This document shows positions 12,001 to 33,000 of a DNA stretch of 64,000 bases, piece after piece. Numbering within the stretch: position 1 is the first letter of the stretch; the number at the start of each line of letters is the position of its first letter. The stretch comes from Candidatus Omnitrophota bacterium (GTDB taxonomy: Bacteria; Omnitrophota; Gorgyraeia; Duberdicusellales; 4484-171). A model generated the notes under the pieces. That model was not told where the DNA came from. It searched no databases and worked only from the letters and a program-made list of their open reading frames with translations. The position numbers and the translations under genes were made by a program. The stretch is taken from positions 64,001 to 128,000 of the forward strand of contig JAIPGM010000001.1 of the NCBI GenBank assembly GCA_021735655.1. Reading direction: 5' to 3'.

Positions 12001-15000
12001 CATTCAATGGGAGCTGTTTTACCGAACACAGAAACATTAACAACTGATGAAGTAGTTTTTGATCCTTCTTCAGTTATTGATTCTTTGTCAGATCAAGCTG
12101 GGGTTGATATAGCCGACACAGCACATTTTAATAGAGAGCTTAGTGGAGCTAAAGATAAGGTTGTTGTGTTAGATTTTTGGGCTACTTGGTGTGGACCTTG
12201 TAGAGACGTGGCTCCACTTTTAGAAGAAATTGCTGAGTCTGATGATAATATTAGGTTATTGAAAATTGACATTGATGACAACCCTGAAATTTTTAATAAA
12301 TTTAAGGTAGTGGATAAGGTAACTGGCAAAGAATTAGTTCCTCAGATACACGTTTTGGTCCATAATCCTAAAAATGGAAATTGGGAACGAAGAGAAGCTT
12401 TGGTAGGTAAAAAGAGTAAAAATCAGATAGAGGCTAGCCTCAGGCCATACTTAGCTGGTTTGGCTAAAGCTGAAACAGAAAGCGATAAGCCGGCCAAGGA
12501 AGCTTCTGAGGGCGAAGCAAGTAGTGGTCATTTTTCAGTTCCTTCAGGGGAAGCGGATTCTAAAGATTTGGCCGAAAGAAGGATTGATGAGATAGAGAAA
12601 AAACTTGTAGCTGAAAAAGAATTAACTGAAAAGAAAAATAAGGCTGATCAAGCTTTTAGCAGCGGTGATTACAGAGAGGCTGCTGAGCTTTATGAGGAAG
12701 TTTTAAATTCGGATTTAGCTAAGGGAGCTTTAGAAGCAATCGCAAAAACAAAGTTGGCTGTTGCTAAGCAGAAAATTGAAGTAGGCGATTCCGATCAGAA
12801 TATTAAAACCACTGCTGTTGGAGATGATAAGGTAGCTCCTGAAAATGAGAGCTTACAGCAAGTTATAGACCAAGGTTTAAAACAAACATCCTCAGCGACT
12901 ATTAACGAAGCGTTAGTTAAGTTAAGAACATATAAGATTGAAGAAGGTAGCTTGTCTGATGAATCTTATAGAGCACTTAAGGCTGAACAAGAAAAAGCTA
13001 TAAGTTTGTTAGTTCAGAGAGTAAAAGCTGTTACTTTTGCTGAGCTCAAAATGCAAAGAGCAATTGAAGCTTCAAATTACAATAAAGCCATGAATGAAAT
13101 CGGTAATGTTTATGTAGAAACATCTACTGATGGTTTAACTAGAGCAATTACCGATGCTATTAATATTCAAGCTCAACACTTAGAGAGTGTATTGACGGCT
13201 ATCCACGTTGCAGACAGGACAGACAAGATTGATTTTGCCTTGAAAGTACTTAAAGAAAGTAAAGGTAAGAATTTACTCCCAGAGGAATTAGAAACAAAAC
13301 TTCAACAAAAAGTAGATAGAGCTATTGGCGAGCTCACAGCAAGAAAAGCCACAGTTGGTCAAGAGACTGATTCAATAAGAGCGCCACCAACTGATAAACC
13401 AGCTACTGAAGAAGCAGAAGCGTCCACAGATTATTCAAAGGTCGGTATTGAGCAATTGACAGAATTGGTAGATGCTAAGATTAAATCTCAACTTTCTCCG
13501 GAAGAGAAAAAAGTTTATGAGGCAAACAAAAACAAGTTAGATTATTTAAAGAAAAATCATCCGGATCTTTTTAAGAAACTTGTTGTTATTGCCGAAGACG
13601 ATATAAAGGCTTGGTTCGAAGCTAACCAAAAACCAATTGTTCAAGCTCAACAAACAGAAATACATAGAGCCGAAAATGTTCTTAAGCAATTCTTAACAAG
13701 ATTTGGCATAGAGTTTAATCAGCCGCGCTATGTAATGGTTTCGGAAAAATTACTTGATGGTCGCTTGGGCGCAGTTTATATTTTATCTCCGGATACAGTT
13801 ATTCTATCTGATAAATTTGAAGTTAAGCAGAAGGTTAGACCGCAAGGAAGGTCTCAGGGACGAAGCCTAGTCGCCCTTGAACCAGCTGGTTCAAATATCG
13901 AAGCTGCTAATCCTAATGAAAATTCTTTAGCTATCGTAGTTATTCATGAGAATCTTCATTTAGTTAAAAATTCTGGTTTAGGCAGCGATCAGATTAACGA
14001 AGGATTTATCCAACATACAACTGATATATTAGCAAAGCAAAATAATTTTAAAGTATCTCACGATCTATATGAACCGCAAAAGGCAGTTATTTATGCCTTA
14101 GAGGCAGAAATAAGTAAAGTTGCCGGAGTAAGCTTAGCTCAAGCTTACGATATGGTAGCCAAAGGATACTTATTAGGAGATACCAGTTTTATTTCAGCAA
14201 ATATTGGAGAAGGCTCCTGGGAAGAAATTGTTAGTATTTCTAATGAATATAGAGATAAAATGGCTTTTGATAATAATCCGTTGCTTTGGGATAAATATGT
14301 ACCTAGAGTAGCTAAAAAATTAGGGGTTAATGACGAAAGCTTAAAAGATCAGCCTAGAGGTTTGAGAGAGAGAGCTAAGCAGTCAGTGGTTGAGTTAGCC
14401 GTTGTTGTTGGAAAAGTTCAAGAGTCTGACAGCGTAGAGCCCGAAGTATCAGACCAAGAGTTACCTAAAGAAGAGGTCAAGAAGGCTGATGGTGATCAAT
14501 CTGTAGATGCTCAGGTTTATTCTTCAGCTCGAGGATTGAATTTAAAGGATAAACAAGAGGGCGAGCAGTTGCAGCAAGCATTCGCAAAAGCAGTTGTTGG
14601 CAATAATGTACCTGAAGAAGCGTTTGTTGTTACTGGCGATACAGATAAGAATTTTTCTGTTAAAGGCAAATTAAGTAATGAAGATGTTGTTAGTTATAGC
14701 ACTAAGAAGATATCTGAGCGCCAAGAGCAGGGATCTCTTACTGCTGGCAGTTTAATAAAGGTAAGAGAGGTTGGTGGAGATAAGAGTTTTCTCTGGCAGA
14801 CACATTTGGGTGATGTTTATGAATTTAAGGCTGACGGGACAGTAAGTAAACTTATTGATGCACGTGATCAAACGGCCTCTAAAATTAAGGTAAATCCAGC
14901 TGAAGAAGGATTGCTCGATACAATAGGCAGGCATGCTTATGAACAGATGCAGAGAGGAATTACGAAGGGATCTATTTTTAACTCTCAAGAGGAACAAATA

Positions 15001-18000
15001 GGTTTTTGGCAGAGAAAGGATAATAAAACTATAGCGGTTATTTATGCAGCTGCTGGCGAAAGAAAAGGTTTCGATGTAAGTTTTACTGAAGAAGTTCGTT
15101 CGGTTGAAGAGCAAAAAGCCAAGAAACTTGCTGATGACCAAGCTGCTGAAAAAGCTGCTGAAGTTAAGAAAGCCGCTGACGCTGAAAAACTTGCTGCTGA
15201 AAAAGCTGCTGAAGCCAAGAAAGTAGCTGATGCTGAAAAACTTGCTGCTGAAAAAGCTGCTGAAGCCAAGAAAGTAGCTGATGCTGAAAAAGCTGCTGAA
15301 GCCAAGAAAGTAGCTGATGCTGAAAAAGCTGCTGAAGCCAAGAAAGTAGCTGATGCTGAAAAACTTGCTGCTGAAAAAGCTGCTGAAGCCAAGAAAGTAG
15401 CTGATGCTGAAAAAGCTGCTGAAGCCAAGAAAGTCGCTGATGCTGAAAAAGCTGCCGAAGCCAAGAAAGTAGCTGATGCTGAAAAACTTGCTGCTGAAAA
15501 AGCTGCTGAAGCCAAGAAAGTAGCTGATGCTGAGAAAGCTGCTGAAGCTAAGAAAGTAGCTGATGCTGAAAAACTTGCTGCTGAAAAAGCTGCTGAAGCC
15601 AAGAAAGTAGCTGATGCTGAAAAAGCTGCTGCTGACAAAAAGATTGCTGATGAAGCTGCTGCTAAGAAATTAGCTGATGAGGCTGCCGCTAAACCAAAAA
15701 CCCAAAATGATGGAGCTAGGGGTATTCGCGCTCCGCCAGCTGCGGAACCAAAGGTTGAAGATCAGCCACTAGCTAAAGCAGAAGAAGCAGTTAGCCAAGC
15801 AATGGAGAAATTGGTTGATGCTGCTAATGCTTCAAATGATGCTGCTAATGCTTATTCCGAAGCTACCAGCAAAGAAGCTGAAGATAAACTTAATAAACTA
15901 GCTGGAGAGTTTGCTCAGTTAGTTTTAGCTAGGGATAATCAAGATGATCAGGTTGTTGACAACGATGGTCAGGTAAAGGCTAAGGAAGCCGAAGTAAGCC
16001 AGAAACAGAAATCAATAGCCGAGCAAGAGGAAAGATTAGAAAAAGCTCTTACTCCTCCAGAAATAAGTGAAGATTGGGAACAGGCTGCCAAGGAGAGGTT
16101 TGGTAAATATAGCCATAATTCTAGGGGTAAATATAATAAAAATAGATTTCATAGCCAGACTCGCACAGTTCCATCAGTAGCTTATGATCAACCAGAAGAA
16201 GATTTTCGTAAAGGAATTCATGAGGTTGTCGGTGAAGGCAAAGAAGCCGCTGCTTATGTTGATACTTCAGTAGTTCATCGTGGTAGTGAAGCGCGTGGTG
16301 CTGGTACAGTAGTTTTGATCTTTGCTGTAGATAAAAATGATTTTAATAAAAGAGTTTTAATATATGTTGATGCCAGCCGTAGACGCGGTATCGATTATAA
16401 TGATCAATATTTTGACTTAGAGGGTAATCAAGTTGAGCCTTTTGGAACAAGTGATAGCTTAATCATTAGGGTTGGCCAAGTTAGTTCCGACAAAGATGGA
16501 GAAATAAGCTTAGATTGGGGTGAACCTTACACTAGTTCTCGTGGCGAAATTAATGATATTTTTGGAAAATATAAACCTGAAGGTGAATTCGTGGCTGGAT
16601 CAGAAGCTCAAGCTAGCGAGCGATCAGCCAAAGATTTACAGGAAGAGTTAGAAAAAGCCGAAGGCGAATTAGAAGCCCTCAAGAAAGCTAAGGAGGAGTT
16701 AACTGGAAAGACAGCTGAAACTGATGAAGAATTAAAAACTAAACAAGCTGAGATTGAAAGATTAAAAGAAAACTTAAAACAAAGACAAGCCAAAGCTGCT
16801 GAACTAAAAAGCGAAACCGCTAAAGCAGTAGATTTGTCTATAGAGGCGCAAGATATAGTTAAAAAAGTTATAGAGGCCAAAGATGCTCCGTTAGAGGATA
16901 GGATTAAAGATCTTGATCAAGCTATTGACTTGGTTGATCAGGTAGCTGAAGTTGCTAGAAGTCTTTCAACCGAAGCGGATAATGAAGTAAAAATAGCCGA
17001 AGGCTTGGTTGATTCAGCTAAGAAAATTGAAGCCTATGCTATTAGTTTAAGAGAAGATGCTGAGAGGAAACTGGCTGAGGTAAAAGCCGCTGAAGAGGAA
17101 GCCCAAAGACAAGCCGAAGAAGCTAAAAAGGCTCAAGAAAAAGCTGAAGCAGAATTAAAGGTCAAAGAAGCTAAAGCCAAACAAGCTTTAGCTGAAGAAG
17201 ATAAGGCTAAGGAAGAATTAACCGAAGCTCAAGGTAAAACTGAGAAAGTTACCACTACCCAGACCGTAAGGGTAAATATTAATAAGCCGCGTTGTTGTTT
17301 AGTAAGATTTTTTATTGATCGTCCAAGATTTGTTCGTGGTTGGGTGCAAGATGGACATTCACGTCGTTGCGGCAGACAAACTTACCGTCAAGGTTTCTAC
17401 CCTGCAGAAATTTACGTAGAAACACTAGTAGCCGTAGATACAACTGATTTAGAGAAAGCCGCAGCTGATAAAGCTGAAGCAAGAAAGACAAGTGATGTGG
17501 AAGTTGAGACTGCTAAAGGAGAGGTTGAAGTTGCTTCAACGGCTACCCAAGAAGCTGAAGCTAATTATAATCAAGCAAAAGCGCAAAGGGAACAAGCTGA
17601 AAAATATTTAGAAAGAGCTAAAGAACTTGAACAGGCAGCTACCCAATGGCGCAAACAAGTAGAAAAAATAGCTCAAAGAGCTCAAGAGTTAGTTGACCGG
17701 GCTCAAGAATTGGAACAAAGAGCAAAAGAAGCAAAAGAGGCCATTGAGGCGTACAAAAAGGCTCTTTCTGAAGAAGAAGGGAGCGGTCAGCCTAAAGGGC
17801 CTGAAGTAGGATCCTTTTATGAGAATCATCCATTTTGGTTTTTCTTCTTACTTTTAACCCCCGGATATCTTTTCGGAATATGGGCTGCTATACGTCGTCG
17901 AAAGGGACTTTCAATCATTCCTGGACGAGGAAAAAAAGTTGTTATAGCTCTTATTGCTGTTGGATTAAGCTTAGCTTTGGCTGATAAGGCTTCTGCTGCA

Positions 18001-21000
18001 GACGTCAGCTTAGCAACTATGGCTGTAGAGAGCTACATGACTTTACAGAATACTACTGGTGGAGTTACTGGTTTTGGAACTGGTTATGCATTAGGAGAAG
18101 CTACAGTAGCTTTATTCTATTGGTTGTTTGGTAATAAAGATAAGACTGAACAATCCCAACCAATCCAACCTCAAGCAGATCAAGCCCCTTCTAGTCGCAA
18201 GAAAGGAAAGAAAAAAGTTGGGCCAGAAGTAACTGAAGAGTCTGATTCTGTTGTACATGAAGATGGTGATAGTGAGGACGGTGAAATGGGTTCTGGAATT
18301 GCCACTTCAAAAGGCCGGAAAGATAGTTCGCAGTCAGCACTTTCAGATATAAAAGTAAAAGCTGAATTAAGTCCTTTAGGCAGACAGGTACGTATTATTA
18401 TTGCTAGTAAGCAGGGTACCAAGAAAGCTCTATTGGATGAGATTTTTGATTTAGCAAATCTTCCGATATTTATTGCTACTGAGGAAGGAAGTTTCTATAT
18501 TTACTATAACCCACGAACCAATCAGTTGATTATTACCGCTGAACGAAGCATTAGTAATAATCCGGCTAGTGTCGGTATGGTACCGGTGAGTTCATACGGC
18601 CAAGCAGCGGAATTAGAGACTCTTTGGGAAAGTGAAGATGGGACTGAAATGGCAGCCCTTGAGGGCGAAGTTGATGACTTCGATGATGTTACTATAAACA
18701 ATATTCGTGGCATAAACAGTTATCTTACTCATCGTAACAGTATTGTTATTATTACCAGTGCTTCTGATCCAGAAGCTTACGTGCAGGATGGCGAGGATAC
18801 AGTCAATGCTGTTATAATCCAGTCAAGTAGGCGAATTGTTCATAACTCAGTTTCCTTGATGAATGCTCTTGGTCAGATAGAAGAGGTTAATGCGTTCTTA
18901 ATTTTAGGGACATCTTCTGATTGGATTACTACAGATGAAGATGGTAGAACTTTTATCCATCGCGCAGTGAAGTTAGTAGGTCGCGATGGTAATCGTATTC
19001 GTATGGTCGTTTTGGATTTTGATCAACCACTTGAAGTTCATTATGGAGTAATTCGTTTGGGACGACCGACTAACACTAAAAATATTCAGCATACCATAAT
19101 ACCTTTATCGCGTAAGCTTGGTTATGAATGGATTGCAAAACATAAAATTGCCGCCAATTTAGTTTTAGTTGATGCACACGTCGCTGTTCCGGATAGCTTT
19201 TCGTTTGTCCAAGATGGTCATGAAGATACGCCATGGATTAAGAGCGCACGTAAGCCTTGGACTATTCGAGGTCCACCCGGTTCGGGTATCCAATGGTATG
19301 AAGTAGCTCCGGGGACCTATGTTATGTTTGTTCAGGGCGCAGGTCGACAAGCCCGTATCAGAGCTGCGGTTGAGAATTTCGTTGCTACTCATCGGGCCGA
19401 AGACGGAACAGCTAAACCAGTTGTTGTCAAAATCGCCGATGGCTCACAGGGTGTAGGTATAGCAATGTTCGGTGTCGAAGAATACGATAACGAGTTAGAT
19501 TTTATCGATGATGCCGTTCAAACTATCCAGGGTTTTCTTAGTGAAGGTCACAGTGTTATGCTTCAAGAACGTGAAATACCGGTTAATGTTGCGGTTAGTG
19601 GCCAGGATTCAAATTATCGTGTCTTTATATCTCGCAAAAACGGAAAGCCAGTTGTAACCAAAATTGTGGTCCGTACTGGTCCTTTTTCGAATGATCCAGT
19701 TAACATTAGTCAGGGTGCCGAAACTATAAGTTTTGAAACAGAAAGCTACGCGATGCTTGGTTTGACTAGCGATGAGCATGCTCGTAAGCGTGAAGCTATT
19801 GAGTCAGCAGCTTTAGCAATGTTTAAGGCTTTAGATGCACAGGCTGATAATGATGCTCTTTATGAAGAAACAGAACGTAGCCAACAAGATTTTGCAAGTG
19901 CCGATATAATTGTTGTTGAAATTGAAGATGCTAACGGCGTTAAGCAGTTCCATCCTAAGATTATTGAAGGCAATGGTACCAATTCAGGTGGTTTTTGGCA
20001 TCTTGATGAATACTATAACAGTAGTTATAGCAGTAAGGGTCGTCAAACAACCGAAAGGGGTTTAGCTATCAAAGAATATGCTGAAACCATAGCCGCTCGT
20101 GCCCGCGCCTATCGTCAACGCCTTGAAGGGAAAGAAGGGGCAGCATACCTTGAACATCTTATGACTACCGCTGTGCAAGATGGCAATGGTTTGGCTGTTT
20201 CTGAAGATATTGCAGTTGATGAAGCCGAATATGATGCAGCGGTTGTTCTTATCGGAGGCTATGTTGATTCTCAGGCCTTGGCTATTTTACAAGCAGCGAC
20301 TGAGAGTGATCCTGCAGTTGCTTTTGTTTGGGTTCGTTGGTCTGGTGAGCTTCGTCGTCGGAAAGGTGTATTATATGTTCAGGATGGCGTTCGCTATCGC
20401 GAGGGCAAATTAGAAGCAGTACACTATGCAGCACCTATTGCTGTAGGTATGGTGCATGCTGCTGGCACTGTCAGCAATAAACAATTACGTAGATTAGGCA
20501 TAACACCACGTACTTGGAATACACGTGTTGAATTTTATATGCATCATAAGGCAGCTACTGCTTATATTTTACGTCAAGCTGGCGTATCAATGCCGAAAAC
20601 ACTTGCTTTCTTGCCGGGTAGTAACAGAGGGCCAGCTCTATTACGCGACGACCCCGATACAGTTATTGTATCTAAGAATGATTTACGTAGAAGAAAAGCT
20701 GCTGTTCGAGTAAGGATACGTCAACGCGTAAGTGAACTTTCAGAATTCACCACTGGCGCTATTGTTAAGCCGGCTAACCGTTCACGTAGTGAAGGCGTTG
20801 AAGCAATCCCTTATACTGGAACCGAAGCAACCATCGATGCTATTACTGATATGATTATGGCTCGTTTGCTTAAAGGCGAAAGTCTTATTCTCCAGGAAAC
20901 ACAATTAGCAAGATCAATCGATGGTTTATATGGTATCGGAAAAACTAGACACTTGGTACGAGCCTTCGGTATGATTGATCCGGTAACTGGGAAACCAGTT

Positions 21001-24000
21001 GTTTTTGCCATCAGATTTGATCCAGGACATATGCCGATCGGCGGAGCCGATAGTATTGTAGTTAACGCTACCCGTCATACCTTGACTGCTGATAAGTACC
21101 ACGGTTATACACTTGAAGAAGTTGCTGCTATGTGGGGTATGGATCCGGAAAGCTTACGCAGCAGCATTGAGCAGTTATTCATTGATGCAGTTACTGCAGT
21201 TGCCTCAACGGTTAATCCACGTGGTGTCAGTCAGGCTTGGATTACGACCGATATGATTATCGATGAAACAACCGGAAAGCCGGTTCTCGTCGAGATGAAT
21301 GGTCGTCGTTCAGCTCAAATCTTTGGTACTGAGAAGCACAGATCAGAACTTGCTCGTTCAGGAAAGGCTCCGGCACGTAGTTATACTGCTACTTTTACTG
21401 ATGCTTTAGCTGCGAAGGCCAAGAAACACCTTAAGGTAAGTATAGAAGAGACTTCGACAGCAGCAGTTCCTTTAGACAACGGAAGTAGTCATAGAGGATT
21501 GTCTATACCGGTATTTTTAGCTGGAATTTTAACTTTGGGTTTAACAAATATTGCTTCGGCTGCCGAAAAAGGGCAAGCAACTAATTCAGATAATCCGCTA
21601 TTTGCTTTATTTTTAATAGTTGCTATACCTTTAGCTGTAGCAGCTGTTGTATTCTTATTTGCTATAGATTGGGATTATTATTTTGGTAAATTAACCAGGC
21701 AATCGCCTCCCAGCGAGAGTGAAACCTCCCCGATAGGGGATGATAGATTAGAAGTTGATGGGGCTAGTTCATCCGTGGCTGCTAGCCCTACTTCTTCTAG
21801 CCATAGGGATGAGCCTCATCGACCTCTTGACAACAACTCTGGAGAAAAACGAAGCAGATTTTCTTTAAGATCTCTTTTCGGTGGAACAGCAGATAGCTCT
21901 TCAGCTTCTAGCTCTGCTAGTAGAACATCTCGAGAAACTCGTGCACCACCAGTTTTAAGAATTGTAATAGCTTGGGCTAGCGCAGGTAACATAGCCGCAT
22001 TAAAGGCTTTAGTCGAGCGTATTAGGCAGGATTTAATTGATGGATTACCTTTTGATGTTGTAATTGAAGAAACAGTAGTCTTAACTAAATTAGATAAATA
22101 TAACCAAAGTCATTTAGGCGCAACCAGAGATTCTAGCGTTGGTCAGTATATCCTTCCTTGGCCAAATTTAAAAACTAAAGCTAACGTACCTACCTTAGTT
22201 ATTACTGATGCTGATTTGGGCGGAACATCTGAAGATGATTCTGGAAAACGATCAACAAATAATAGCCTTATGGGCAGGACCTATGCTTGGCAGAATATAG
22301 CACTGGCCACTACTTGGAAATTCCGCAGTTCAAACCAAGGTCTATCAGATAGAAATAATCGCAATAACATATTACATGAACTCGGCCATCTTTTTGGAAT
22401 AAATCATGAGTGTGGCTGTAAAACCTGTATTATGCATCAAGCTGACTCAACCGAAGAAGTGGCCCGGACGAAACAATTTTGTAAGTCTTGTAATAACGAA
22501 TTAACTAAAATAAATGGTGTTAAATCTAAAAAAACACCACTTGATAACGGTAAACAAACTAGACAATCGTCTCCCAGCGATAGATTAGAAGTTGATGGGG
22601 CTAGCTCATCCGTGGCTGCTAGCCCTACTTCTTCTAAACCTTTGGATAATGGAATATTCGGAGTAATGTTTAGACAAAGAGCCACAAGGATTGATGCTGA
22701 TGGCCATGGTAATTGTTCTGCTGTGACTATTTGGGCTAAGAGAGTTGAGGCTTGGGATGGTTATTTTTCAGAGGGAGAGTCTTTTTATATAGCAGGTATT
22801 GAAGATAGTAGCGATTCATTAGGAGAAAGTACAGATCCTAGGTATGTACGAACTGTAGAAAGATCGGAATCTTCAGATAGGTCTCAAAGAATAGTTAAAG
22901 TAGAAGTCGCTGAGGGTGAATTCACGATTATTGAATTAGAAGACGGATCGGTTATTGCTCATGCCCATATATTTCCAAGACAGGGAACGGCCGATACTGC
23001 TTATTGGCAGCTTATTAGAGTGTTGGATTATTTTACCGACTCCAGAAATGGTTTTGATCAAGATAGCTTAAGAATTGCTTTTGGTTGGGAAGAACGTTTA
23101 GATGGATTTGGTTACGATGCAATTACTTTTAATAGAAGGTTGTTTAGAACTTCGGATTATATGGGGGATGGTCGAGGGCCAGTTTATAGTTCAGCTATGA
23201 CTTGGGATCAACAAGTCGCCGCAGCTGGTCTAGTCGGAGTATTACCTAGTGGTACCGAGCGCATTAATGAGTTAGAGCAGTTGGCCAGAGACAAAGGCTT
23301 TGAAGTTATTTCTTCAAATACCCGTCAATATACGCCAGATCCGGCAGGTTCCGGACAGGGGATGACCGCAACAGATATTAGCGTAACATCTAGTGATTAT
23401 TGGTTGTCGCATAGGCAGGCAGAATTTAGATTTCATTTACGCTTATCAGAAGATAAAAGACCGTTAGATAATGGTAAAGAGAGTGATTTACAGATTCCTC
23501 TTGATAATGGCCCAAAAGGACAGTCTGAATTAGCGGCTAATACCTTAGGCTCTCTAATTGCCGGATTAGTCGCTGCACTTCCAGTTGTTGGGTTGGTGGC
23601 GGGCGCCTTAGCTTTAGTAGTTGTACTTCCGCCGGCAATAACAACAACGACCGCAGTAGTAGTAATCGCAGTAATTGCGGCAGCAGGAATCCTATCGCTT
23701 CCTTTTGCCTATATCTCAGTAATGTTTTTGTCACAAGGCTTAAGAATTGCCATAGCTAATGTTGTTCATGGCGGCATAAGAGGCCCTACTGCTTTAACTG
23801 AACCTATTGCTACTCCGGGCAGTAATGTTTCAAGAAAAATTCCTGAATCAATTATGCCTTTAGCTCTAAGACATTCCATTAACCAGGTTCATGAACAAGC
23901 CCATCGTGATGGAAAAGATGAGCTTGGTGCTTATTCTGCTCAAGCAAAAGATTTCTTGGCTAAAGGAATAAAAGTTTTAATTCATCTTGGATTACTAATC

Positions 24001-27000
24001 GGTGCTACTAAATTAGTTTGGATAACTGGTTTCGGTAGTTTATTTAATGTATTTGTTCCAGCTCTCGTGGTCTTGGTTGCTGTTTTTTACCTATGGAAAG
24101 ATTTAAATTCCTTAAGGGATAGTCAGCCAATTAAACTTTTCTATGAATCTCGGGTTTTACTGACTCAAGCTGAAAGTTTAGCCATTGGCACATTTGTTTC
24201 AGCCCGTGGTGTTCAAAGCCAAAGGGTTGGGTTTGCCGATAGAAGCTTAATTGATTCAGTCTCTCGAGTAGTTACTAATCCAGTTTTAGTAGTAGCTTTT
24301 GTTTTATTAGGAATTTCGGTACCGTTAACTGGCGGAGCAAGTTTCTTCAGTCTAGCTGTATTGCAAGGTGCTCTTTTTGGAGTCTTTGCTCCTTATTTGT
24401 TTAATGTGTTATGGAATTTTTTCTGGGATCATGCTCAGAAGGATGATTACCTGCAAAAAATAGCCGAAGGTTATAAAGCTAGAACACTTTCAACTAATAA
24501 TTTGAACGAACTAGATAGGTTAGTTAAGCTTTTTGAGGATGGTTTAGCTAAGGCAAATAATTTTGAAAGAGTTTGGTTTAGGCTAAAGAGCTTTTGGATA
24601 ATAGGATCAGTAAGACTTCCAGCCTTAACCGGACCAGCTAAATTTTTGATAGGTAGGTTACAGTTAGTTTTCTGGGGTTCAGTAATAGCTCTAGGAGTTC
24701 TTCCTTTTGTTGATCAATGGTTATTAAATATTTTTGGAGTTGGGGCTGAATTTTCTTTGCTCAACCTAATTGGTTATGATGGCGTTAAAGATGGCGCTGC
24801 CAGCTTGAGTCTTTCACATACAATCGGTGGCTTAATAAGAACTGGCATAATTGTAATGTTGCTTAAGATTTTTAGCCGTAGATTTTCTCAGCTTAGGAAT
24901 AATATTCAAAATAACCGACTAGCCAATGGTAAGGATATCAAATTAGGTTCTTTGAGCGCTGGGTACTTAATTAAGAATTTTGATAGAGTAGATAAAGATT
25001 CAATAAAGCTAGCGCTTGAGCGGGGTTTAATTAATCCTTCAGGAATTCCGGCAGCTAAGGCGCTATTACGCGAAATGCTTGGAACTGAAGGCATAAACGT
25101 TGTTAATCCTTCAGTTTCCGGGAAGTTATTCCATCAGTTCTTTTATTACCTTATTCCCGATGCAATAACTTTTCTAGTCGTTATTTCTTCGCCGATATCC
25201 GGTTTATTGTATTTTTTACATAGAAGAGTACTTAAGAATTTAAACAATGATTTCAGTGTAGCGCATCCTTATTATTCTTTATGGCTTATGCAGGGCCGCG
25301 AGTATTGGGTAAGTTTTGGGCATATGTGGATAATATCAGCTGAGATTGAAGCAGTTGTCGATAGCGGCGATTATCTTGCCGGACATCAAGTTTTAAAGCA
25401 TGTTGGTGGTCAAGAAATAGGTCAGATTGCTCATCTCTTAGAAGGTAAAAATGGAGCAATTTCTTGGGGTGGCCATATTTTAGGATTAGTAGAATCTTCT
25501 TTAGGCATAAGCTTGGCTCAGGTTGCCCATAATGCTTTAGGTGGTGAAACTGATGTTGTAGCTTGGCAACAAAGCAACCAACTCAAGATTCAAATTGACA
25601 CAATAGAGTCGTCTAAAGATTTTAAAAGAATACATTCTAGAGCGAATGCAGAAGTTTTGAAGAATGCTGATGCCCTAGAGCAAATGTTTTCCTTTGAGGC
25701 AGAACGGAATGAATTAGAAGAATCGGTAAGAGTCCATGCTCGCAGTCTCCTTTATCAAGCTGCTGCTAGTAAAGAAGCGCACGATAATGTGTATGATCAA
25801 GATGGAAAGCTAAAACTTGATTTAGCAGTAGAGATTGTTGCAGCTAGGGTCACCGGTAGTATTTTAGGTAGAGTATTTTCAATGGGTCAATTTGGTGGCA
25901 GCAGTTCCTTGGGTAGCGAAATAGAAGTTGTGGTTGATGGGGACGCTGATGTGGTTGGATCAGAACCAAAAGTAGTAGCTGCTCCGTTAGACAATGGAAA
26001 GCCAAGCGAAAGACCGGTTGTTGATTCAGAAAAGGTAGATTCGGTTTCACCAAACCAGGCAGAGGGTTCTACGGTTGAAGATAGTTCAGAGGCTAAGGCT
26101 TCAGATACAAGAGAGGTCAAACAGTCCAGAGCGCCACCTGAGGAATCAAAGGAAGGTCTATTAACTCGTTTAAATAGAGGAATTTTCCGCAAAGTAGCTC
26201 CGGTCTTATTAAGTTTGCATATTGCTTTTTCACCGATAACTGAGTACTCTTTAGCTAGCTATTTAGAAAATCAAAATCAAGCAGTTGCAGTTCAAGTCCA
26301 GGAAGTTGACTCATTAGGGACGGTAGTTGATTATAGCCGTAGTCGAGACGGAAGCGCACTGAATGAAGCAAGGATTAAAGCTGAAGTTGAATCAACTCCG
26401 AGTGAAGCAGTTGATTTTGAACGGATTAACCGCGGCGGTGAACTGGATAAAGCTCGAGGATTTTACCAGACCCAAGGTCTAAAGGCTGCTTCGGATAGTT
26501 TTGCCGAGTATTTCAGACAACCTGGTAAGATTAGAGTAGGTGATTATGATCGATTTACCGGATCAGTCTATAATGGCAAATTATATCTATCTGAAGATAC
26601 CTTAGATGATTCTTCAGAGTTAACTCTTACCCTAGTCCATGAAATTGGAGCTTTCGCTAAAAGAACTCATGCTCAAAATAAAGCTATGGAGTATAAGTTC
26701 TTGGTAGCTGAAGGAAAAGTTCCTGAAATTGCTTTAGAGATGGATCCGGTATCTCGAGAAGTTGTTAAACTTAAACCAGGAAATACCATAGCGATTATCG
26801 AAAAGCCTAATGGCGATTGGGTTGCTGTAGGTAAAGATGGAAAAGAAACTGTTATATTTGGAGCATCTATCCAGGTCGCCGAAGGGGCTAACCCACCTTC
26901 AGCCTATGGTGAAAATAAGCCAGAGTTACCTTATCGTAACTTACACGATACTGACAGAGTAAAAACTGAAGATGGGAAAAATCTGACTAGTGTTTTAGAT

Positions 27001-30000
27001 CAAATCGGATTAAACTTTCAGCACTTCTACCTGATGACTAACCCTACTGCTGAGCAGTTAAAGATACTAGAAGGGATAGTAACAAAGGCAAGAGCAAGGG
27101 GTGTTGAAACTATGGTTACCTATTGGGCTGGTCAGCATACTAAGAACATTTCTTTAGAAGCTGAAATTAAGCAGGCTTTAAATATTCCGGCCGAGAGAGA
27201 TTTGACTGAGTTTAACTTAAGGCCGGTTGAGGATTGGAATAAGCTTACTCAAGTTAAGCAAAATCAATTAAAGGCCCAATTGGGTATCGCTGCTACTGAA
27301 ACTGTAAATGAAATACAGATTCAAAATCTTTTAATGCTTGAAAGCTGGAGTCAAATACCAGCGGCTCGGCAAAAAGAGCTTAGAGCCCAGATTGGTATCA
27401 GCGAAGCGGCCAAGTTAAGTATAGACCAGATAGATACGCTTTTATTTATCAATCTTTGGCAAAGTTTGCCGGTAGCTAAGCAAGCAGAGTTTAGAGGACG
27501 CTTAGGCTTTGAGGCTACCGAGAAACTCACCGATATCATGCAGATTGAATCAGGTCTATTTACTCTTTATAATCCTACCGCTGAAAATAAAAAGTATATT
27601 GTCGATCAGGCAAAGATGGTTGCCGAATGGGCCAATCAAGTTGGCGTTTTTGTAAAGATTGCTAATGAAATTAACTACTATGATAAGAATGGTCCGGTTC
27701 TTGATCTTGCAAAGATAAATCCAAACCAAATGGTCAATTTGTTTCCTCATCAGTTATATAAATTTTTAAACGAGGAAATAGCAGTATTGTTTAATAAGGA
27801 TAAAGTTTTCTTAAGCTTAGGAAGGTTAGATGTTCCTGGTTTTGAAGATGAGCCATTCTTAAAAGATAATCTTTCAAATTTCAAAGGGTTGGCCTTAAAC
27901 CTTTATCCTAACTGGGATCCTCAATTTGGCGGCTCACGTGAAACCGATCAATTATTTAGTTCGATAAACTATAGCCGTGGAATCATTGGTAGCATGCAAG
28001 CAGCAGCAAGTTTAAGAGTTCCAGTAATAATTTCAGAGTGGGGCGAGTCTTCATATTTAGCCGGCATTGCTAAAGCTATAGGAATTGGTGAAGTTGGTCA
28101 GGCTCTTTTTGCCCGAACTTTTTATCAGGGAATTCTACCATTTGTTGCCGGAAATAGTGATCCTAAATATGCTGATCGAACTCAATTTCCGAAAGTTATA
28201 GTTGGTGCGATCGTCTATAGTGGTGCTTACGAACAAGGTTGGCAGGCCACCTTAGATCCAGCTGAGCCAGGGTTGTCATTTACCGAAGTTGTTGACGCTT
28301 CAGATCCTTTAACTGTAAGAGTAAAACCGTTTGCTTTTGAACTTGCAAAGATAAATGATCTTTTGCAACGCATGGTCCAAGGGTTGGCAGTTGAGCAGGT
28401 AGTGGTTCCTGAATTTACCGCTAAGCCAAAGGCTAAGGTTGACCGAAGCCACGAAATACCGGAAGCCGAAATAACCAGGCCACTTGATGCTGCGGCTGTC
28501 GTTGAAATTTCTCGTGAGTCTCAAGCAATCCAATATTCTAAAGACAATCCTAAAGAGCCAACAGTTGTTTTATTGACTAAAGGGGTTGCTCGTCTTGATC
28601 CAAAGGTCATAGCAAGTAGTCTTTCTGGCATTGGAAGAGTATTCTTTGGGGATGATCCGCAACTTATTAGAGATTTCGGTGCTGATAATCTTAAAGAAGG
28701 TTTGTTTGAGGCGAGAGTATTACTTGACGGAAAAGTTATTGCAAGGCTTATTACTGAATCGGGTTGGAAAATTAGCGATCAGAGCAGAGTAGTTAAAAAT
28801 GGCAAGCTAGTAAATGAAAAGACTGAAAGAGATGGAAGCTTTGTAATGCTTGAACAGGTTAAAACAGCTGAAGGTTTTGTAACTAATGGGTACTATATTT
28901 TTGATGCTGACAAATCTGAATATCTGCATTTAGAGAATTTAAATATACGTAATATTGATGAATGGCTAGCCATAAGAGGAAATTTCCCTCAGTATAACTT
29001 AGCTAGATCCGTTGGGGGAACTACTGATGTAGAGTTTGTTCGTGTTGAGATTGATTCTGCCAATAAAAATATAATTATTGATTACACGAGAATTAATAGC
29101 GGTAAACAGGTTCCTCTAACTTGGTCAACGGTAATTAGTCGTTTAACTGCCACTGCAGAAAGCACTGAAGCCGTCACCGCTACAGATATGAAACCGGCTG
29201 AGGATATGCTGGATAAGTTGTTACAATTAATACATGATGGCAAGTTTCATCGAATATCAAAACAACGGGGTAGTCGCGCAGCCCATAATCGTGAGTTACG
29301 AGCCAATTGGCTTGATTGGGATTTAAGAAGACATACTGGCATGAATTACTGGGAAGTTGGCTTACCTAATCCAATCCAGGGTTTTGCAATTATTACTAGA
29401 GCCGGATCACGCGGACAAGTAATATTCCTTTCCGATACTGCGACTGACGCTAATCTTCAAGCAAAAATACTTGGTAATTATGATTTAAGATTTACCCCTA
29501 GCGGAAGAGTTCAATTTAACTTGGAAGGTAAGTTAGTTGAGTTGCCTTCAGTATCGGATTTGAGATGGGCCTTACGGAATATTAATTTTTCAGGAGCAAG
29601 AATAGTTGGTGAAAGCCCTGAAAAAGGAATGGATATTTTAAGTGCCGAGATTCCTTGGTACGGTGATAATTTAACATTTTTGGGCGAGAAGTTAGTTTCT
29701 AAGGGTGAGGCAGTAACTATGGTAATGCTTCACGATCGTGATCGTGGTGAAGTATCGATTAAGATTTTAGTTGGCGTTACTCCGCCGGAAGGTGGCGAGG
29801 CCAAGCTCGACTGGAAAGAGAAATTCAATAATTTAGTTAAGCGTGACGGCGCAAGTTCGAAATATCTTTTTGGTGAGGTGCCTTTAGTTGAAATTAATTT
29901 TGAGCGAGTTGGGCCTAATACTTATCGGGTGATGGCTGAGGTTGATCCGGTATATCCCGGTTTAAGAAAAATAAAAGACGTTAAGGTTGAGACTGCTGAA

Positions 30001-33000
30001 GATATGGCCAAATTAGTTGAAGCTACTTTAACTAAGAAGGCTATAGAGGGAGTTGACACTGGCTTACGTATCGTTACCAAGGGTAAGTATTCTTTACTTA
30101 TTCGTCTTGATAAGAATACCGGAGACCCGATTGAGGGAGCAATTGAGAAATCAGCAAAAGGCTTAAAAGCAGCCTCGCGACTTTTCGGTAAAACTGAATC
30201 ACACAAGACCTTTACCTTTGAGGAAAAACTTGACCCGCGAACTGGTCGAAGCAGCGATGTGGCAAGACTAATAACTGATAAGACTGACGCAAACTGGTTT
30301 GGGCTTTATATCGTTGAAGATGTAACTCTTAGGCAAATTATTGCTGCTTTTACTGAAAATGGCACACTTTCCGGAATAAACGGCGTTGATAGTGGGTTAA
30401 GAGCCTTACAAAAAGAAGTAAATGTGATTGTAGTTGACGCTCAAGGGCGTCGCACAACCCAAGAAGTTACTCGTAGCTTATTCTTACGCTTTGATTTAGA
30501 AACTAAAAAGTTAATTGAAGGAATTGTTCAAACTGAGGATCCTAATACTGATAGATTGCGTCCGGATAGCCTTGAAAAACGTCAAAAGGGCCAGAGAATT
30601 ACTGATGATGATTATTACTGGTTTGTCCGCGATGTCAGAGAGCCAAAACCGTTTGATTTTGAAGGTGCTATACCGTTAGATTCTGGACGCATCATAATTG
30701 TTAATCGCGAGGATCCTAATGTTCCTGGGCTTTGGTATGTGGTTGATGCTGAGGCTGGCGATATAGTCTCAGCTTTCCGTCAGAATGGATCATTAAGAAA
30801 TATTAGAGGCCGGGAAACTGGTTTCCGAGCTTATCAGACTGAAGTTACCTTACGAGATGGTGATGGAAAAGCTATTTTAGATGACCAGGGCCAGGAAGTT
30901 AAAGTAACTCATACTTTACTTTTCAGGTTTGAGTTAGATGATCAAGGAAGAATTATGAAAGATTCTTTGGCTGAAGGTGTACTCCAGGCTGAGACTACTG
31001 AAGCTAAATTGCGTCAAGGGAAAGATGGCAAAGATGAAACTAATGATTATTACTGGTTTATTAATATGTCTAAAAGCCTTATATCGTTTAAGGTTACCAG
31101 CTATGATCAAGGTAAGTCAGTATTAATGATTTCTCTGCCGGAAACAGAAGCTGACAAAGATGGTTGGCGTCCAGTTAGAAGGTTAGAGGTTGATAATGCC
31201 AATCAGATTAAAGATTTAGCTGAAGCCTTAAAGAGAGCAGTTACTAATAATGATTATAGCGAGCTGGGTGAGAAAACTGACACACGGATTAAGATCGTTG
31301 AAGTGGGTAAAGACCGTCGTTACATTATAATGGATAGTAATGGAGAATATTCAATAGAGGTTCAGTCAAAAACCGAAAATGATGAAGAATATGTCTTTAG
31401 CGCTAAGGCCTTGGAATATGGTTATATTGATAAAGAGGGTAAATATTGGTTGTACCGCGGAAATTTAAAAACAGTTACAACCGAAGATGGCAATAATAAA
31501 CTGCTATCAATTCAGGTAGATGAGAAACTCAATCCAGTTATTGATCAGACCACCAAAAAACCTTTTACCCAAACCGTAACTGTAGTCGCGGCCAATAGCC
31601 AGGCAGTAGTTATCATATTTGGCGACAATGAGCTTAATGTTTTAGCTCGCAAAAATGGGGAGAGGATCGGTTACGGTCTTAAAGATAAGGAAGATGGGAG
31701 ATTGTATATCTTTACTGGTTATACTCGTAACGATGACGGAAGCTACTCTTTAAATAAATCGAGTGTTAAGTTACAAGATATTGTTACGATAACTGTTGGT
31801 TTTAAGCTTGTTTCTACGGCGATTGATGAAGAAATGAAACCGCTTATTGATCTAGACACCAAGACACCATACACTCAAATTGCTCCGATTATTGCTGCCA
31901 ATGATGATTGGGTAGTAATTTTAGTTAAAGATAATAAGCTTAATGTTTTAAATCGAGATGACGGGAAAACGATCGGTTATGGCCAGAAAAATCCTAAAGA
32001 TGGAAAACTGTATTTATATATGATTTATGAGATAAAAGACGATGGTAAATATTATTTGAAGAAATCACCGGTTGATTTAAAGGATACAAAAGTCGTAACT
32101 ATCGGCTATGAGCTTATTTCTACTGAGATTGATTCAGATATTAATATAGTAATTGATCAAGCTACTAAGAAACCGAGCACCCAATTTGCTCCGATTGTTG
32201 CTGCTAATGATAAAGAAGTAGCAATCCTGGTTAACGGTGATGAACTAGTCGTTTTAGACCGAAAGAAAGGTAAAGAAACTGCCTACGGCTATGTTAAAGA
32301 TAAAAAATTCTACCTTTATGCATCAATTGATGTGCTTAAGGCAATCGAAGCCGGTCGATTTTTAGAGACCAAACAAGTTGATCAGAACCTTAAACCGGTT
32401 AAAGATCCGGCCACCGGAGAAGAGATAGTTGAAAAAGTACCAGTAGTTGCTGCAGATAAAACAATTGCCGTTATCTTAATTGAGAAAGAAGCCCCGGGCA
32501 TTGAGAATTCACACACACTTAATGCTTTAAGCAAGGCTACTGGTAGAAAAGCACGCTACGGCTATAAAGACTTAGCCGATGATAGTCTTTATTTATTTGA
32601 TTTAGTTGAAAAGATCAAGGTTGTTCAAGCTGGTCAAAGCTTAACTACTATTAAAATTGATGAAAAAGTCAATACGCTTAGTACTGAAACATTACCAGTA
32701 GTTGCCTCTAATGATGCGGAAGTCGTCATTCTGATCGACAAAGAAGCGCCGGGTTATCCAAATACTAAAACTCTTAATCTTATAAATAGAGAAACCGGTT
32801 TAGTCACTCGCTACGGCTATAAAGAGTTAGATGATAATAGTCTTTGGTTGTTTGATTCAATTGAAGCACTTAAAGCTGTCCAGGCCGATCAAAGCTTAAC
32901 TACCACTAAGATTGACAAAAAGATAGGCACGCTTGAAACTAAAGAAGTACCAGTAGTTGCTGCTAATGATAAGGTGGCGGTAATCTTAATTGATCGACCA

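What the first reader, a model, noticed from the sequence alone, without database searches (positions are those of the whole stretch)
22375..22500. An archaemetzincin-like HExxHxxGxxH + CxxC module is embedded in the polyprotein: a candidate cis-acting processing protease
HELGHLFGINHECGCKTCIMHQADSTEEVARTKQFCKSC reproduces the archaemetzincin/peptidase-M54 signature (HExxHxxGx3Cx4CxMx17CxxC as I recall it) almost residue for residue. The module is itself bounded by a PLDNN variant (21823) and the double-PLDNG cassette (22537/22639). Viral polyproteins typically carry their own proteases. Further bare HExxH motifs occur at 10576 (HEAMH), 13945 (HENLH), 42274 and 50773.
Basis: partly seen in the sequence, partly recalled or inferred. 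Interest (0 to 1): 0.75.

Follow-up and report, generated by a model that had tools for sequence, protein, structure and literature searches.

The report
Archaemetzincin protease module in giant ORF
A genuine, apparently intact archaemetzincin-type zinc protease domain sits as one module inside a giant (>64 kb) bacterial, Omnitrophota-type multi-enzyme gene whose modules are separated by a strictly conserved PLDNG peptide, which makes it a testable but unproven candidate for the enzyme that cuts the giant protein into pieces.

Summary
HELGHLFGINHECGCKTCIMHQADSTEEVARTKQFCKSC is at 22375-22491. It passes Pfam Peptidase_M54 (36.4 bits, cut-off 24.4) and matches solved archaemetzincins by sequence. 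An AlphaFold model (core pLDDT about 80-93) has the five archaemetzincin entries as its best PDB matches.

The context is not viral. The whole 64-kb window is one stop-free ORF encoding thioredoxin, GT48 glucan synthase, HAD, methyltransferase, PEP-utilising, NUDIX and PFK domains. Its closest relatives are Candidatus Omnitrophota proteins, which matches the published multi-enzyme giant proteins.

PLDNG occurs 30 times (0.01 expected) with variable codons. It lies in polar linkers and never falls inside a Pfam domain.

The M54 module is single-copy. It belongs to a distinct subfamily found inside similar long multi-enzyme ORFs. In 7 of 9 informative relatives it is flanked by the same kind of junction motif ([LVF]DNG[GS], or PRTNGS).

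Whether the module cleaves these junctions, or whether they are cleaved at all, remains inference. My probability for the processing-protease reading is about 0.35. The main rival is that the module is just another cargo enzyme and that a different protease, or none, acts on the junctions. Neither the motif nor an M54 role appears in the papers I could search.

The parts
1..64000 (+). Host ORF. Frame +1 is open across the whole window (21,333 codons, no stop) and runs off both ends. It is a multi-enzyme, polyprotein-like giant gene.
   Evidence: Pfam content
21469..21483 (+). PLDNG junction motif that opens the short membrane-hairpin segment upstream of the protease module
21499..21666 (+). 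Two hydrophobic, transmembrane-like helices (21499-21555 and 21610-21666) forming a hairpin. This cassette is homologous to the PLDNG+basic+TM cassettes at 8932 and 11188.
   Evidence: Kyte-Doolittle scan; self-BLAST
21685..21810 (+). Linker cassette, copy 1 (Ser/Pro-rich, ...DRLEVDGASSSVAASPTSS...). It is the left arm of a direct DNA repeat that brackets the protease module.
21823..21837 (+). PLDNN, the only variant of the junction motif (G to N). It is the N-terminal boundary of the module.
21838..21942 (+). Ser/Arg-rich N-terminal linker, predicted disordered (module aa 6-40; aa 1-39 have pLDDT <50)
21943..22524 (+). Folded archaemetzincin (peptidase M54) catalytic domain, module aa 41-234. 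It has an N-terminal beta-sheet/helix subdomain and a C-terminal subdomain.
   Evidence: AlphaFold model; Foldseek; Pfam; subfamily alignment
22375..22407 (+). Catalytic zinc site HELGHLFGINH: His185, catalytic Glu186, His189, Gly192 and the third ligand His195
   Evidence: H185, E186, H189 and G192 are invariant in the subfamily
22411..22434 (+). C197-x4-C202-x-M204: the first half of the Cys4 structural zinc site plus the Met-turn methionine
   Evidence: C197, C202 and M204 invariant
22480..22491 (+). C220-K-S-C223: the second half of the Cys4 structural zinc site
   Evidence: C220 and C223 invariant
22537..22551 (+). PLDNG junction motif 9 aa after the end of the Pfam M54 match. It is the C-terminal boundary of the module and is predicted disordered.
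22549..22647 (+). Linker cassette, copy 2, the right arm of the direct repeat. 22579-22647 matches 21742-21810 (69 nt, first 58 of 59 bases identical). 22549-22583 matches 21685-21719 (83%).
22639..22653 (+). Second PLDNG of the double cassette, 34 aa after the first. It starts the next module.

Best explanation
The segment 21823-22536 encodes a single-copy, catalytically complete archaemetzincin (MEROPS/Pfam M54) zinc metalloprotease domain. It has two disordered flanks. It is one module of an Omnitrophota-type giant multi-enzyme ORF.

Shown: the family, the fold, intact zinc ligands, the general base, the Met-turn and the Cys4 site. Also shown: it belongs to a distinct M54 subfamily that lives inside such giant ORFs. 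The ORF's modules are separated by an invariant, protein-level junction motif ([RKT]-P-L-D-N-G-[KR] here; [LVF]DNG[GS] or PRTNGS in relatives) that sits in polar linkers and also flanks the protease module.

Inferred: the giant chain is translated whole. This cytoplasmic protease, whose Cys4 zinc site and neighbouring sugar-metabolism enzymes argue for the reducing cytoplasm, recognises the exposed junction peptide. It cuts at or next to the conserved D/T-N-G core, first freeing itself and then releasing the other enzymes and membrane-anchored pieces in trans. This would work like a viral polyprotein protease or the MARTX cysteine protease domain.

Because its upstream boundary here is the variant PLDNN, the protease may stay attached to the preceding two-helix membrane hairpin.
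For: Family and integrity:
- Pfam Peptidase_M54 scores 36.4 bits against a cut-off of 24.4.
- phmmer matches archaemetzincins 2x7m, 3lmc, 3zvs and 4axq.
- The subfamily profile retrieves about 100 PF07998 proteins, with E-values down to 1e-19 for the standalone archaemetzincins.
- The AlphaFold core has pLDDT about 80-93. The top five Foldseek hits are archaemetzincin structures (E 2.5e-11 to 1.8e-8, TM 0.64-0.78), followed by ADAM17 and MMP-7.
- H185, E186, H189, G192, C197, C202, M204, C220 and C223 are invariant in 10 subfamily members.

Junction motif:
- There are 30 PLDNG against 0.01 expected. Synonymous codons vary, so selection acts on the peptide.
- The flanks are enriched in K/R and polar residues and depleted in hydrophobic ones. 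K/R follows the G at 23 of 30 sites.
- No Pfam domain is interrupted. HAD begins 17 aa after a motif and HATPase_c ends 4 aa before one.
- The motifs flanking the module are predicted disordered, that is, accessible.

Association:
- Exhaustive phmmer finds a subfamily covering the whole module. Most members lie inside long multi-enzyme proteins.
- In P0001, P0002, P0004, P0005, P0007, L001/P0003 and the independent 20-kb stop-free locus L050, the module is again flanked by the local junction motif. The same motif delimits PGM, PGI, TAL+TKT, HAD and CofD units.
- DNG or TNG is 6- to 20-fold enriched in those proteins.

Other support:
- The module is the only Pfam-recognisable peptidase in 21,333 aa and occurs exactly once there. 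It also occurs once in L050.
- Endopeptidase and self-cleavage activity is documented for one family member, AMZ-tk (PMC4681839).
- AfAmzA's groove was read as suited to basic or hydrophobic substrates (PMC3427221).
Against: - There is no direct evidence that the junctions are cleaved at all.
- AlphaFold does not place either flanking motif in the active site (pLDDT <50).
- Two long M54-bearing fragments, P0008 and P0034, have no DNG motif.
- Archaemetzincins are widespread as small stand-alone proteins in archaea and bacteria without giant ORFs, including a Candidatus Omnitrophota MAG (L014). The family is therefore not dedicated to polyproteins.
- M. kandleri and A. fulgidus AmzA are inactive in standard assays, their natural substrates are unknown, and the homologue CarG is non-proteolytic (PMC3427221).
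- Only about ten subfamily representatives exist among 1.84 billion cluster representatives, while hundreds of giant Omnitrophota ORFs are reported. It may therefore not be universal in them.
- The literature proposes C39 and S8 domains as the processing enzymes (10.1101/2023.11.21.568195). The relatives' motif ending in G-G or G-S loosely resembles double-glycine sites.
- Large stretches (3,424 and 5,884 aa) have no junction motif.
Confidence: 0.35

Rival explanations
1. Cargo enzyme. The M54 module is the lineage's version of an ordinary cytoplasmic archaemetzincin with its own, still unknown, substrate. It was fused into the giant ORF like PFK, PGM, HAD or NUDIX. The junction motif is processed by a different enzyme: a C39 or S8 domain elsewhere in the giant protein, an Asn/Asp-specific endopeptidase, or a separately encoded protease.
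For: The giant ORFs carry many unrelated housekeeping enzymes, each flanked by the motif, so flanking by the motif is not specific to the protease. Stand-alone archaemetzincins exist in many bacteria, including an Omnitrophota MAG. P0008 and P0034 have the module without DNG. C39 and S8 domains are reported as ubiquitous near the N-termini of these giant proteins (10.1101/2023.11.21.568195). The window shows only part of the gene, so other proteases may lie outside it.
Against: No C39, S8 or other peptidase family is detectable in 21,333 aa of this ORF or 6,795 aa of L050. The embedded modules form a separate, well-conserved subfamily scoring 204-304 bits against 99 bits or less for stand-alone forms. 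The window's motif is followed by K/R rather than G/A/S, and it lacks the hydrophobic -4/-7 pattern of double-glycine leaders (the leader pattern is from general knowledge of C39 substrates).
Confidence: 0.3
2. There is no processing. PLDNG is a structural or functional linker element, for example a hinge, a docking site for a partner, or a module-assembly or recombination scar under peptide-level selection. The giant protein stays intact as a membrane-tethered multi-enzyme scaffold. The M54 domain acts on other proteins, or is regulatory like CarG.
For: There is no evidence of cleavage anywhere. Published reanalysis of proteomics could not settle whether the product is one chain. The linker cassettes are duplicated at the DNA level around modules, which suggests a role in module shuffling. 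Asn-Gly is chemically labile to deamidation (general protein chemistry) and could act as something other than a protease site.
Against: An invariant pentapeptide with variable codons at 30 junctions, with lineage-specific flavours that keep the N-G core, is typical of an enzyme recognition site rather than a passive hinge. Several motifs are followed by a basic stretch and then a TM helix, resembling the N-termini of separate membrane proteins. The catalytic residues of the protease are fully conserved, unlike CarG, where the general-base Glu is replaced by Gln (PMC3427221).
Confidence: 0.2
3. One reading: a viral polyprotein carrying its own protease.
For: The formal layout (one long ORF, repeated junction motif, embedded protease) resembles viral polyproteins.
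Against: The ORF is longer than 64 kb and encodes cellular metabolism (PFK, PEP-utilising enzyme, glucan synthase, thioredoxin, HAD, NUDIX), with no viral hallmark by Pfam. The nearest relatives are annotated Candidatus Omnitrophota/Omnitrophica. There are no relatives and no exact match in 2.9 million viral contigs. The layout matches published Omnitrophota multi-enzyme giant proteins.
Confidence: 0.02

Closest known systems
Archaemetzincins (MEROPS/Pfam family M54; AmzA of Methanopyrus kandleri 2X7M, Archaeoglobus fulgidus 3ZVS/4AXQ, Methanocorpusculum 3LMC; AMZ-tk; human AMZ1/AMZ2)
   Same: HExxHxxGxxH zinc site, Met-turn, Cys4 structural zinc site, metzincin fold of about 190 aa. It passes the Pfam threshold, and the best structural matches are these proteins.
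   Different: It is embedded in a giant ORF rather than being a free protein of 160-210 aa. Its N-terminal subdomain is divergent and is not matched by the Pfam profile. There is a one-residue insertion between the third His and the first Cys, and the Met-to-CxxC spacer is shorter. Most subfamily relatives carry a 9-10 aa loop before the third ligand, and one uses Asp. Natural substrates of the known members are unknown.
Omnitrophota giant multi-enzyme proteins ('Archaeovorins', West-Roberts et al. 2023 preprint; 'multi-enzyme metabolic clusters', Nielsen & Lui 2026 preprint)
   Same: A stop-free ORF of tens of kb, many TM helices, and glycosyltransferase, methyltransferase, NUDIX, sugar-metabolism and PEP/pyruvate-kinase-type domains. 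The closest sequence relatives are Omnitrophota.
   Different: Those papers propose C39 and S8 peptidases as possible processing enzymes and state that the cleavage points are unknown. Neither mentions a recurrent junction motif or an M54 domain in the text I could search.
MARTX toxin cysteine protease domain (autoprocessing of a multi-effector bacterial protein at inter-domain Leu-X sites) and viral polyprotein proteases such as picornavirus 3C (from general knowledge)
   Same: The logic is the same: a protease embedded in the chain, and short conserved sites in disordered inter-module linkers, including sites flanking the protease itself.
   Different: The catalytic class differs (zinc metzincin against cysteine or serine-like proteases). 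The scale differs (dozens of metabolic enzymes). The host differs (a free-living or episymbiotic bacterium). Cleavage has not been demonstrated here.
Multi-core RiPP precursors (cyanobactin PatE with repeated recognition sequences) and C39 double-glycine leader processing (from general knowledge)
   Same: Repeated short recognition peptides flank each cassette of one precursor. The relatives' motif ends in G-G or G-S.
   Different: The cassettes here are whole enzymes rather than peptides. The window's motif is followed by K/R. No C39 or subtilisin-like domain was found in the window or in L050.

Membership tests
Archaemetzincin / peptidase M54 | HExxHxxGxxH/D catalytic zinc motif with the general-base Glu | tested here: met
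   HELGHLFGINH at 22375-22407. H, E, H and G are invariant in the subfamily alignment.
Archaemetzincin / peptidase M54 | Four conserved cysteines (Cx4C ... CxxC, the Cys4 structural zinc site) and a Met-turn (CxM) | tested here: met
   C197, C202, M204, C220 and C223 are present and invariant. Spacing deviates from the consensus by +1 (His to Cys) and -2 (Met to CxxC) (PMC3427221).
Archaemetzincin / peptidase M54 | Score above the curated Pfam PF07998 gathering threshold | tested here: met
   36.4 bits against 24.4, E 7e-9, although only over profile positions 136-194. Relatives score 42-51 bits.
Archaemetzincin / peptidase M54 | Metzincin fold closest to solved archaemetzincins | tested here: met
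   Foldseek against PDB: ranks 1-5 are 2x7m, 3zvs (two chains), 4axq and 3lmc, with E 2.5e-11 to 1.8e-8 and TM (target) 0.64-0.78. The model core has pLDDT about 80-93.
Archaemetzincin / peptidase M54 | Zinc-dependent peptidase activity | not testable with these tools
   This needs a recombinant enzyme. In the family, activity is shown for AMZ-tk, while Mk and Af AmzA are inactive in standard assays (PMC4681839, PMC3427221).
Polyprotein with embedded processing protease (functional class) | Protease encoded inside the same ORF as its presumed substrates | tested here: met
   A single M54 module lies within a stop-free ORF of 21,333 codons.
Polyprotein with embedded processing protease (functional class) | Conserved short sites at module junctions, including those flanking the protease | tested here: met
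   30 PLDNG plus 1 PLDNN, all in linkers and none inside Pfam domains. The same arrangement is seen in L050, P0001, P0002, P0004, P0005 and P0007.
Polyprotein with embedded processing protease (functional class) | The sites are actually cleaved, and by this protease | not testable with these tools
   No proteomic or biochemical data were accessible. The cis motifs are not docked in the AlphaFold model.
Polyprotein with embedded processing protease (functional class) | Protease and site motif co-occur across lineages | tested here: inconclusive
   7 of 9 informative M54-bearing long ORFs or fragments carry a D/T-N-G junction motif, while P0008 and P0034 do not. The reverse test, whether motif-bearing ORFs lack M54, could not be run.
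Viral polyprotein | Viral genomic context or hallmark genes | tested here: not met
   Only cellular enzyme domains were found. Relatives are annotated Omnitrophota. Nothing was found in viral contigs.
Omnitrophota giant multi-enzyme protein ('Archaeovorin'-like) | A very long stop-free ORF with TM helices and GT, methyltransferase, NUDIX and sugar-metabolism domains, of Omnitrophota affiliation | tested here: met
   The best hits for the glucan-synthase region are Candidatus Omnitrophota proteins (49% identity). The source contig itself was not recovered.

The most novel reading that the evidence does not exclude
Some Omnitrophota encode an 'operon in one ORF'. Dozens of cytoplasmic and membrane enzymes are translated as a single chain and are matured by a dedicated archaemetzincin-subfamily protease that cuts at the (P)LDNG / xDNG[GS] / PRTNGS junction peptides. 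That would be a cellular, bacterial polyprotein system on a scale unknown outside viruses. It would also give the archaemetzincin family its first natural substrate and recognition sequence.
Probability: 0.25. Interest if true: 0.85.

Novelty: new variant of a known kind. Interest (0 to 1): 0.62.

Why it matters
Two open questions meet here.

1. Are the giant Omnitrophota proteins (up to about 147,000 aa) used whole, or cut into pieces? The published work says cleavage points are unknown.
2. What do archaemetzincins cut? They are a structurally solved protease family with no known natural substrate.

An invariant junction peptide, together with a conserved and catalytically intact M54 module flanked by it, gives both questions a concrete and inexpensive experiment: peptide or self-cleavage assays with an E186A control, and searches for DNG-junction termini in existing metaproteomes.

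The junction motif has practical value even if the protease link fails. It offers a rational way to cut these giant ORFs into modules for structure prediction and annotation.

Tried and rejected
- A word-indexed homology search with the single module found nothing. Only the exhaustive phmmer search and the profile search worked.
- The source genome was not recovered. The metagenome scan gave one, L050. An alignment without the HExxH block was too variable to scan with.
- The viral origin was checked and rejected.
The afdb50 fold library was unavailable.
- The other HExxH sites were examined as alternative proteases. They have no Pfam or PDB sequence support. The paralogous pair at 41956-42480 and 50446-50970 gave a low-confidence model (pLDDT 49). 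Its best fold matches are metalloproteases (BlaR1, MATCAP) but are non-significant (E >= 0.02, TM about 0.2). This is inconclusive and is not used as evidence.
- A DNA- or RNA-level explanation of PLDNG was rejected because the codons vary synonymously.
- Internal translation starts after each motif were rejected because no Met follows the motif.
- Spontaneous Asn-Gly chain cleavage was considered unlikely on chemical grounds, since Asn-Gly favours deamidation. This was not tested.
- The literature shows no use of 'PLDNG' as a motif. No paper links archaemetzincin with Omnitrophota giant proteins.
Full report
**1. The observation**

Translating 22375-22500 in frame +1 gives HELGHLFGINHECGCKTCIMHQADSTEEVARTKQFCKSCNNE. 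It contains an exact HExxHxxGxxH, then C-x4-C-x-M, then C-x-x-C.

It differs from the published archaemetzincin consensus HEXXHXXGXXHCX4CXMX17CXXC (PMC3427221) in two ways. One extra residue separates the third His from the first Cys, and the Met-to-CxxC spacer has 15 residues instead of 17.

The full signature occurs once in the window and in none of 2000 shuffles of the translated ORF. Five of the ORF's 45 cysteines are in this module.

The stated boundaries are correct: PLDNN at 21823, and PLDNG at 22537 and 22639. The additional HExxH sites exist, and there is a sixth at 23890. That makes 6 against about 0.4 expected.

**2. Context**

The entire window is a single reading frame with no stop codon in 21,333 codons. 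It runs off both ends. Pfam finds the following domains:

| Domain | Position |
|---|---|
| Thioredoxin | about 12.1 kb |
| Peptidase_M54 | 22.3-22.5 kb |
| GT48 1,3-beta-glucan synthase (184 bits) | 39.2-40.7 kb |
| HAD plus a methyltransferase | 45.6-47.3 kb |
| PEP-utilizers_C | 53.0-53.8 kb |
| NUDIX and HATPase_c | 57.4-58.9 kb |
| Phosphofructokinase | 61.0-62.0 kb |

About 40 hydrophobic, TM-like segments are scattered through the ORF.

The best database matches of the glucan-synthase region are partial proteins annotated Candidatus Omnitrophota (49% identity), ahead of oomycete and plant callose synthases. One relative of the protease module is annotated Candidatus Omnitrophica.

This content and layout match the Omnitrophota giant proteins described in two preprints: 'Archaeovorins' and 'multi-enzyme metabolic clusters'. 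Nothing related was found in the viral collection. The host is therefore a bacterial giant gene, not a viral polyprotein. The source contig itself was not recovered.

**3. The junction motif**

- PLDNG occurs 30 times against 0.01 expected, and at most once in any of 2000 shuffles. There is one additional PLDNN.
- All five codons vary synonymously between copies, so selection acts on the peptide.
- The preferred context is [R/K/T]-PLDNG-[K/R], with K/R at 23 of 30 sites. The flanks are polar and basic and are depleted in hydrophobic residues.
- Segment lengths between motifs are mostly protein-sized (88-1200 aa). Two long motif-free stretches of 3,424 and 5,884 aa are the exceptions.
- No Pfam domain is interrupted. 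HAD starts 17 aa after a motif, PFK 49 aa after one, HATPase_c ends 4 aa before one, and M54 ends 9 aa before one.
- Several motifs are followed by a basic stretch and a TM helix. Three such PLDNG+basic+TM cassettes are homologous to each other.

**4. The module is an archaemetzincin**

- Pfam Peptidase_M54 scores 36.4 bits (gathering threshold 24.4, E 7e-9). The match covers only the C-terminal 60 residues of the profile.
- phmmer against PDB sequences finds archaemetzincins 2x7m, 3lmc, 3zvs and 4axq (E 3e-4 to 2e-3), aligning the zinc motif, the Met-turn and the CxxC.
- Exhaustive phmmer against 1.84 billion representatives finds 40 hits. The top eight (E 1e-19 to 7e-10) cover the whole module.
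- Their alignment has H185, E186, H189, G192, C197, C202, M204, C220 and C223 invariant, plus a conserved PTLVITDxDLTG strand.
- The profile of this alignment retrieves about 100 PF07998 proteins.
- An AlphaFold model built on the alignment has mean pLDDT 74.9. The core (aa 41-234) is mostly 80-93. Residues 1-39 and 235-243, which include both junction motifs, are below 50.
- Foldseek against the PDB ranks the five archaemetzincin entries first (E 2.5e-11 to 1.8e-8, target TM 0.64-0.78). ADAM17, MMP-7 and other metzincins follow.

That condition is not met.

**5. A distinct, embedded subfamily**

With a local HMM of the alignment, embedded modules score 204-304 bits. This includes L050 at 250 bits, which was not used to build the model. 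Stand-alone archaemetzincins score 99 bits or less. The window and L050 each contain exactly one copy.

Context of the relatives:

- **P0004:** PGM | VDNGG | M54 | SDNGG | PGI.
- **P0007:** M54 | FDNGG | transaldolase+transketolase | LDNGG | HAD.
- **P0001:** LDNGG | M54 | PLDNGG | kinase ... B12/radical SAM.
- **P0002:** LDNGG | M54 | SDNGG ... LDNGG.
- **P0005:** uses PRTNGS, CTNGS or QTNGR instead. Its third zinc ligand is Asp.
- **L001:** ILDNGG | M54, then a stop codon, following a glucan-synthase-like membrane region.
- **L050:** 20.4 kb, stop-free, taken from a 335-kb metagenome contig. It has nine [LVF]DNG[GS] sites, two of which flank the M54 module and two of which exactly frame a HAD domain.

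DNG or TNG is 6- to 20-fold enriched in these proteins. The invariant core across lineages is [D/T]-N-G.

Two M54-bearing long fragments, P0008 and P0034, lack it.

**6. Mechanism: what is shown and what is inferred**

Shown:
- The family, the fold and the intact catalytic and structural metal sites.
- Single copy in the window.
- Disordered flanks that carry the junction motif.
- Recurrence of the module-plus-motif arrangement in independent giant ORFs.
- It is the only recognisable peptidase in the window and in L050.

Inferred:
- The junctions are cleavage sites.
- This protease cuts them.
- It works in the cytoplasm. The argument rests on the Cys4 zinc site, the neighbouring glycolytic and pentose-phosphate enzymes, and the basic residues next to TM helices.

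Literature support is limited. AMZ-tk degrades casein and the endopeptidase substrate FS-6 and cleaves itself (PMC4681839). Mk and Af AmzA are inactive in standard assays and natural substrates are unknown. The authors read this as stringent specificity or a need for activation (PMC3427221). CarG shows that the fold can be non-proteolytic.

The upstream boundary here is PLDNN. If Gly is required for cleavage, the protease would remain tethered to the preceding two-helix membrane hairpin (21469-21822). This is speculation.

**7. Rivals**

- **(a) Cargo enzyme, with another protease acting on the junctions.** This is favoured by the fact that every module, not just the protease, is motif-flanked. 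It is also favoured by stand-alone archaemetzincins in Omnitrophota (L014), by the two motif-less relatives, and by the published C39/S8 proposal.
- **(b) No processing, with the motif as a linker or docking element.**
- **(c) Viral polyprotein.** Rejected.

I put about 0.35 on the processing-protease reading, 0.30 on (a), 0.20 on (b) and 0.02 on (c). The remainder is unassigned.

**8. Novelty**

'PLDNG' does not occur as a motif in the searchable literature. No paper links archaemetzincin to Omnitrophota giant proteins. The two giant-protein preprints do not mention M54 or a junction motif in the held text, and one says explicitly that cleavage points are unknown.

The domain itself is a new subfamily of a known family. 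Combining it with a conserved junction peptide in a cellular giant ORF is a new variant of the polyprotein-plus-embedded-protease theme.

**9. Verdict**

The viral context is rejected. The functional claim is plausible, testable and unproven.

Noticed in passing
window 1-64000 (+), frame 1: The whole 64-kb window is one stop-free ORF (21,333 codons) that fuses unrelated enzymes: thioredoxin, GT48 glucan synthase, HAD, methyltransferase, PEP-utilising domain, NUDIX, HATPase_c and PFK. About 70% of it has no Pfam match.
   Followed up: partly
window, 30 sites from 8932 to 63718 (list): Invariant PLDNG junction peptide (0.01 expected) with variable codons, preferred context [RKT]-PLDNG-[KR]. Relatives use [LVF]DNG[GS] or PRTNGS, so the conserved core is [D/T]-N-G. 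Near-variants ALDNG (7906, 10939) and SLDNG (42445) also occur.
   Followed up: partly
window 21685-21810 and 22549-22647: The protease module is bracketed by a direct DNA repeat of the linker cassette (69 nt with the first 58 of 59 bases identical, plus 35 nt at 83%; spacing about 840-860 nt). Related cassettes lie at 43636-43752 and 44548-44700. This suggests modules are moved or duplicated by recombination between linker cassettes.
   Followed up: partly
window 8932-9180, 11188-11445, 21469-21690: Three homologous 'PLDNG + basic stretch + TM helix or hairpin' cassettes (34-41% identity). Many other junctions are also followed within 10-45 aa by a hydrophobic helix, like the N-termini of separate membrane proteins.
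   Followed up: no
window 41956-42480 and 50446-50970: Two paralogous modules of about 140 aa share INPN..RGPP..IFExHExxHxxGxDE...SH..FLENNS. The second begins at a PLDNG and the first ends at an SLDNG. There is no Pfam or PDB sequence match. The AlphaFold model is poor (pLDDT 49). Its best but non-significant fold matches are the zinc proteases BlaR1 and MATCAP. This may be a second, uncharacterised metallopeptidase-like domain.
   Followed up: partly
window 29900-33600: A block of degenerate internal protein repeats (pairwise 24-46% identity over 100-310 aa, E down to 3e-67) with no Pfam match. It may correspond to the periodic beta-helix-type regions reported for these giant proteins.
   Followed up: no
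window 38851-42000: A eukaryote-type GT48 1,3-beta-glucan (callose) synthase domain with a multi-TM region. Apart from three Omnitrophota or metagenome fragments, the nearest relatives are oomycete and plant callose synthases at 26-31% identity.
   Followed up: partly
P0005 (2947 aa) and L001 (CAZBSU010000120.1): P0005 pairs a changed junction motif (PRTNGS) with a changed third zinc ligand (GLEDC, Asp instead of His). In L001 the M54 module is the last module of its ORF and is followed by a stop codon, directly after a glucan-synthase-like membrane region and coiled repeats.
   Followed up: no
window 15100-15500; AT-skew shift 12000-18000: A low-complexity, His-rich stretch (weak Plasmodium_HRP hit, below threshold). 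AT skew is markedly positive (0.13-0.20) over 12-18 kb, compared with about 0 elsewhere.
   Followed up: no
L014 7519-7824 (JAMWCT010000045.1, Candidatus Omnitrophota MAG): A stand-alone 219-aa ORF with the canonical archaemetzincin signature ([21 protein letters not shown]...CNNC). Omnitrophota therefore also have ordinary free archaemetzincins.
   Followed up: no
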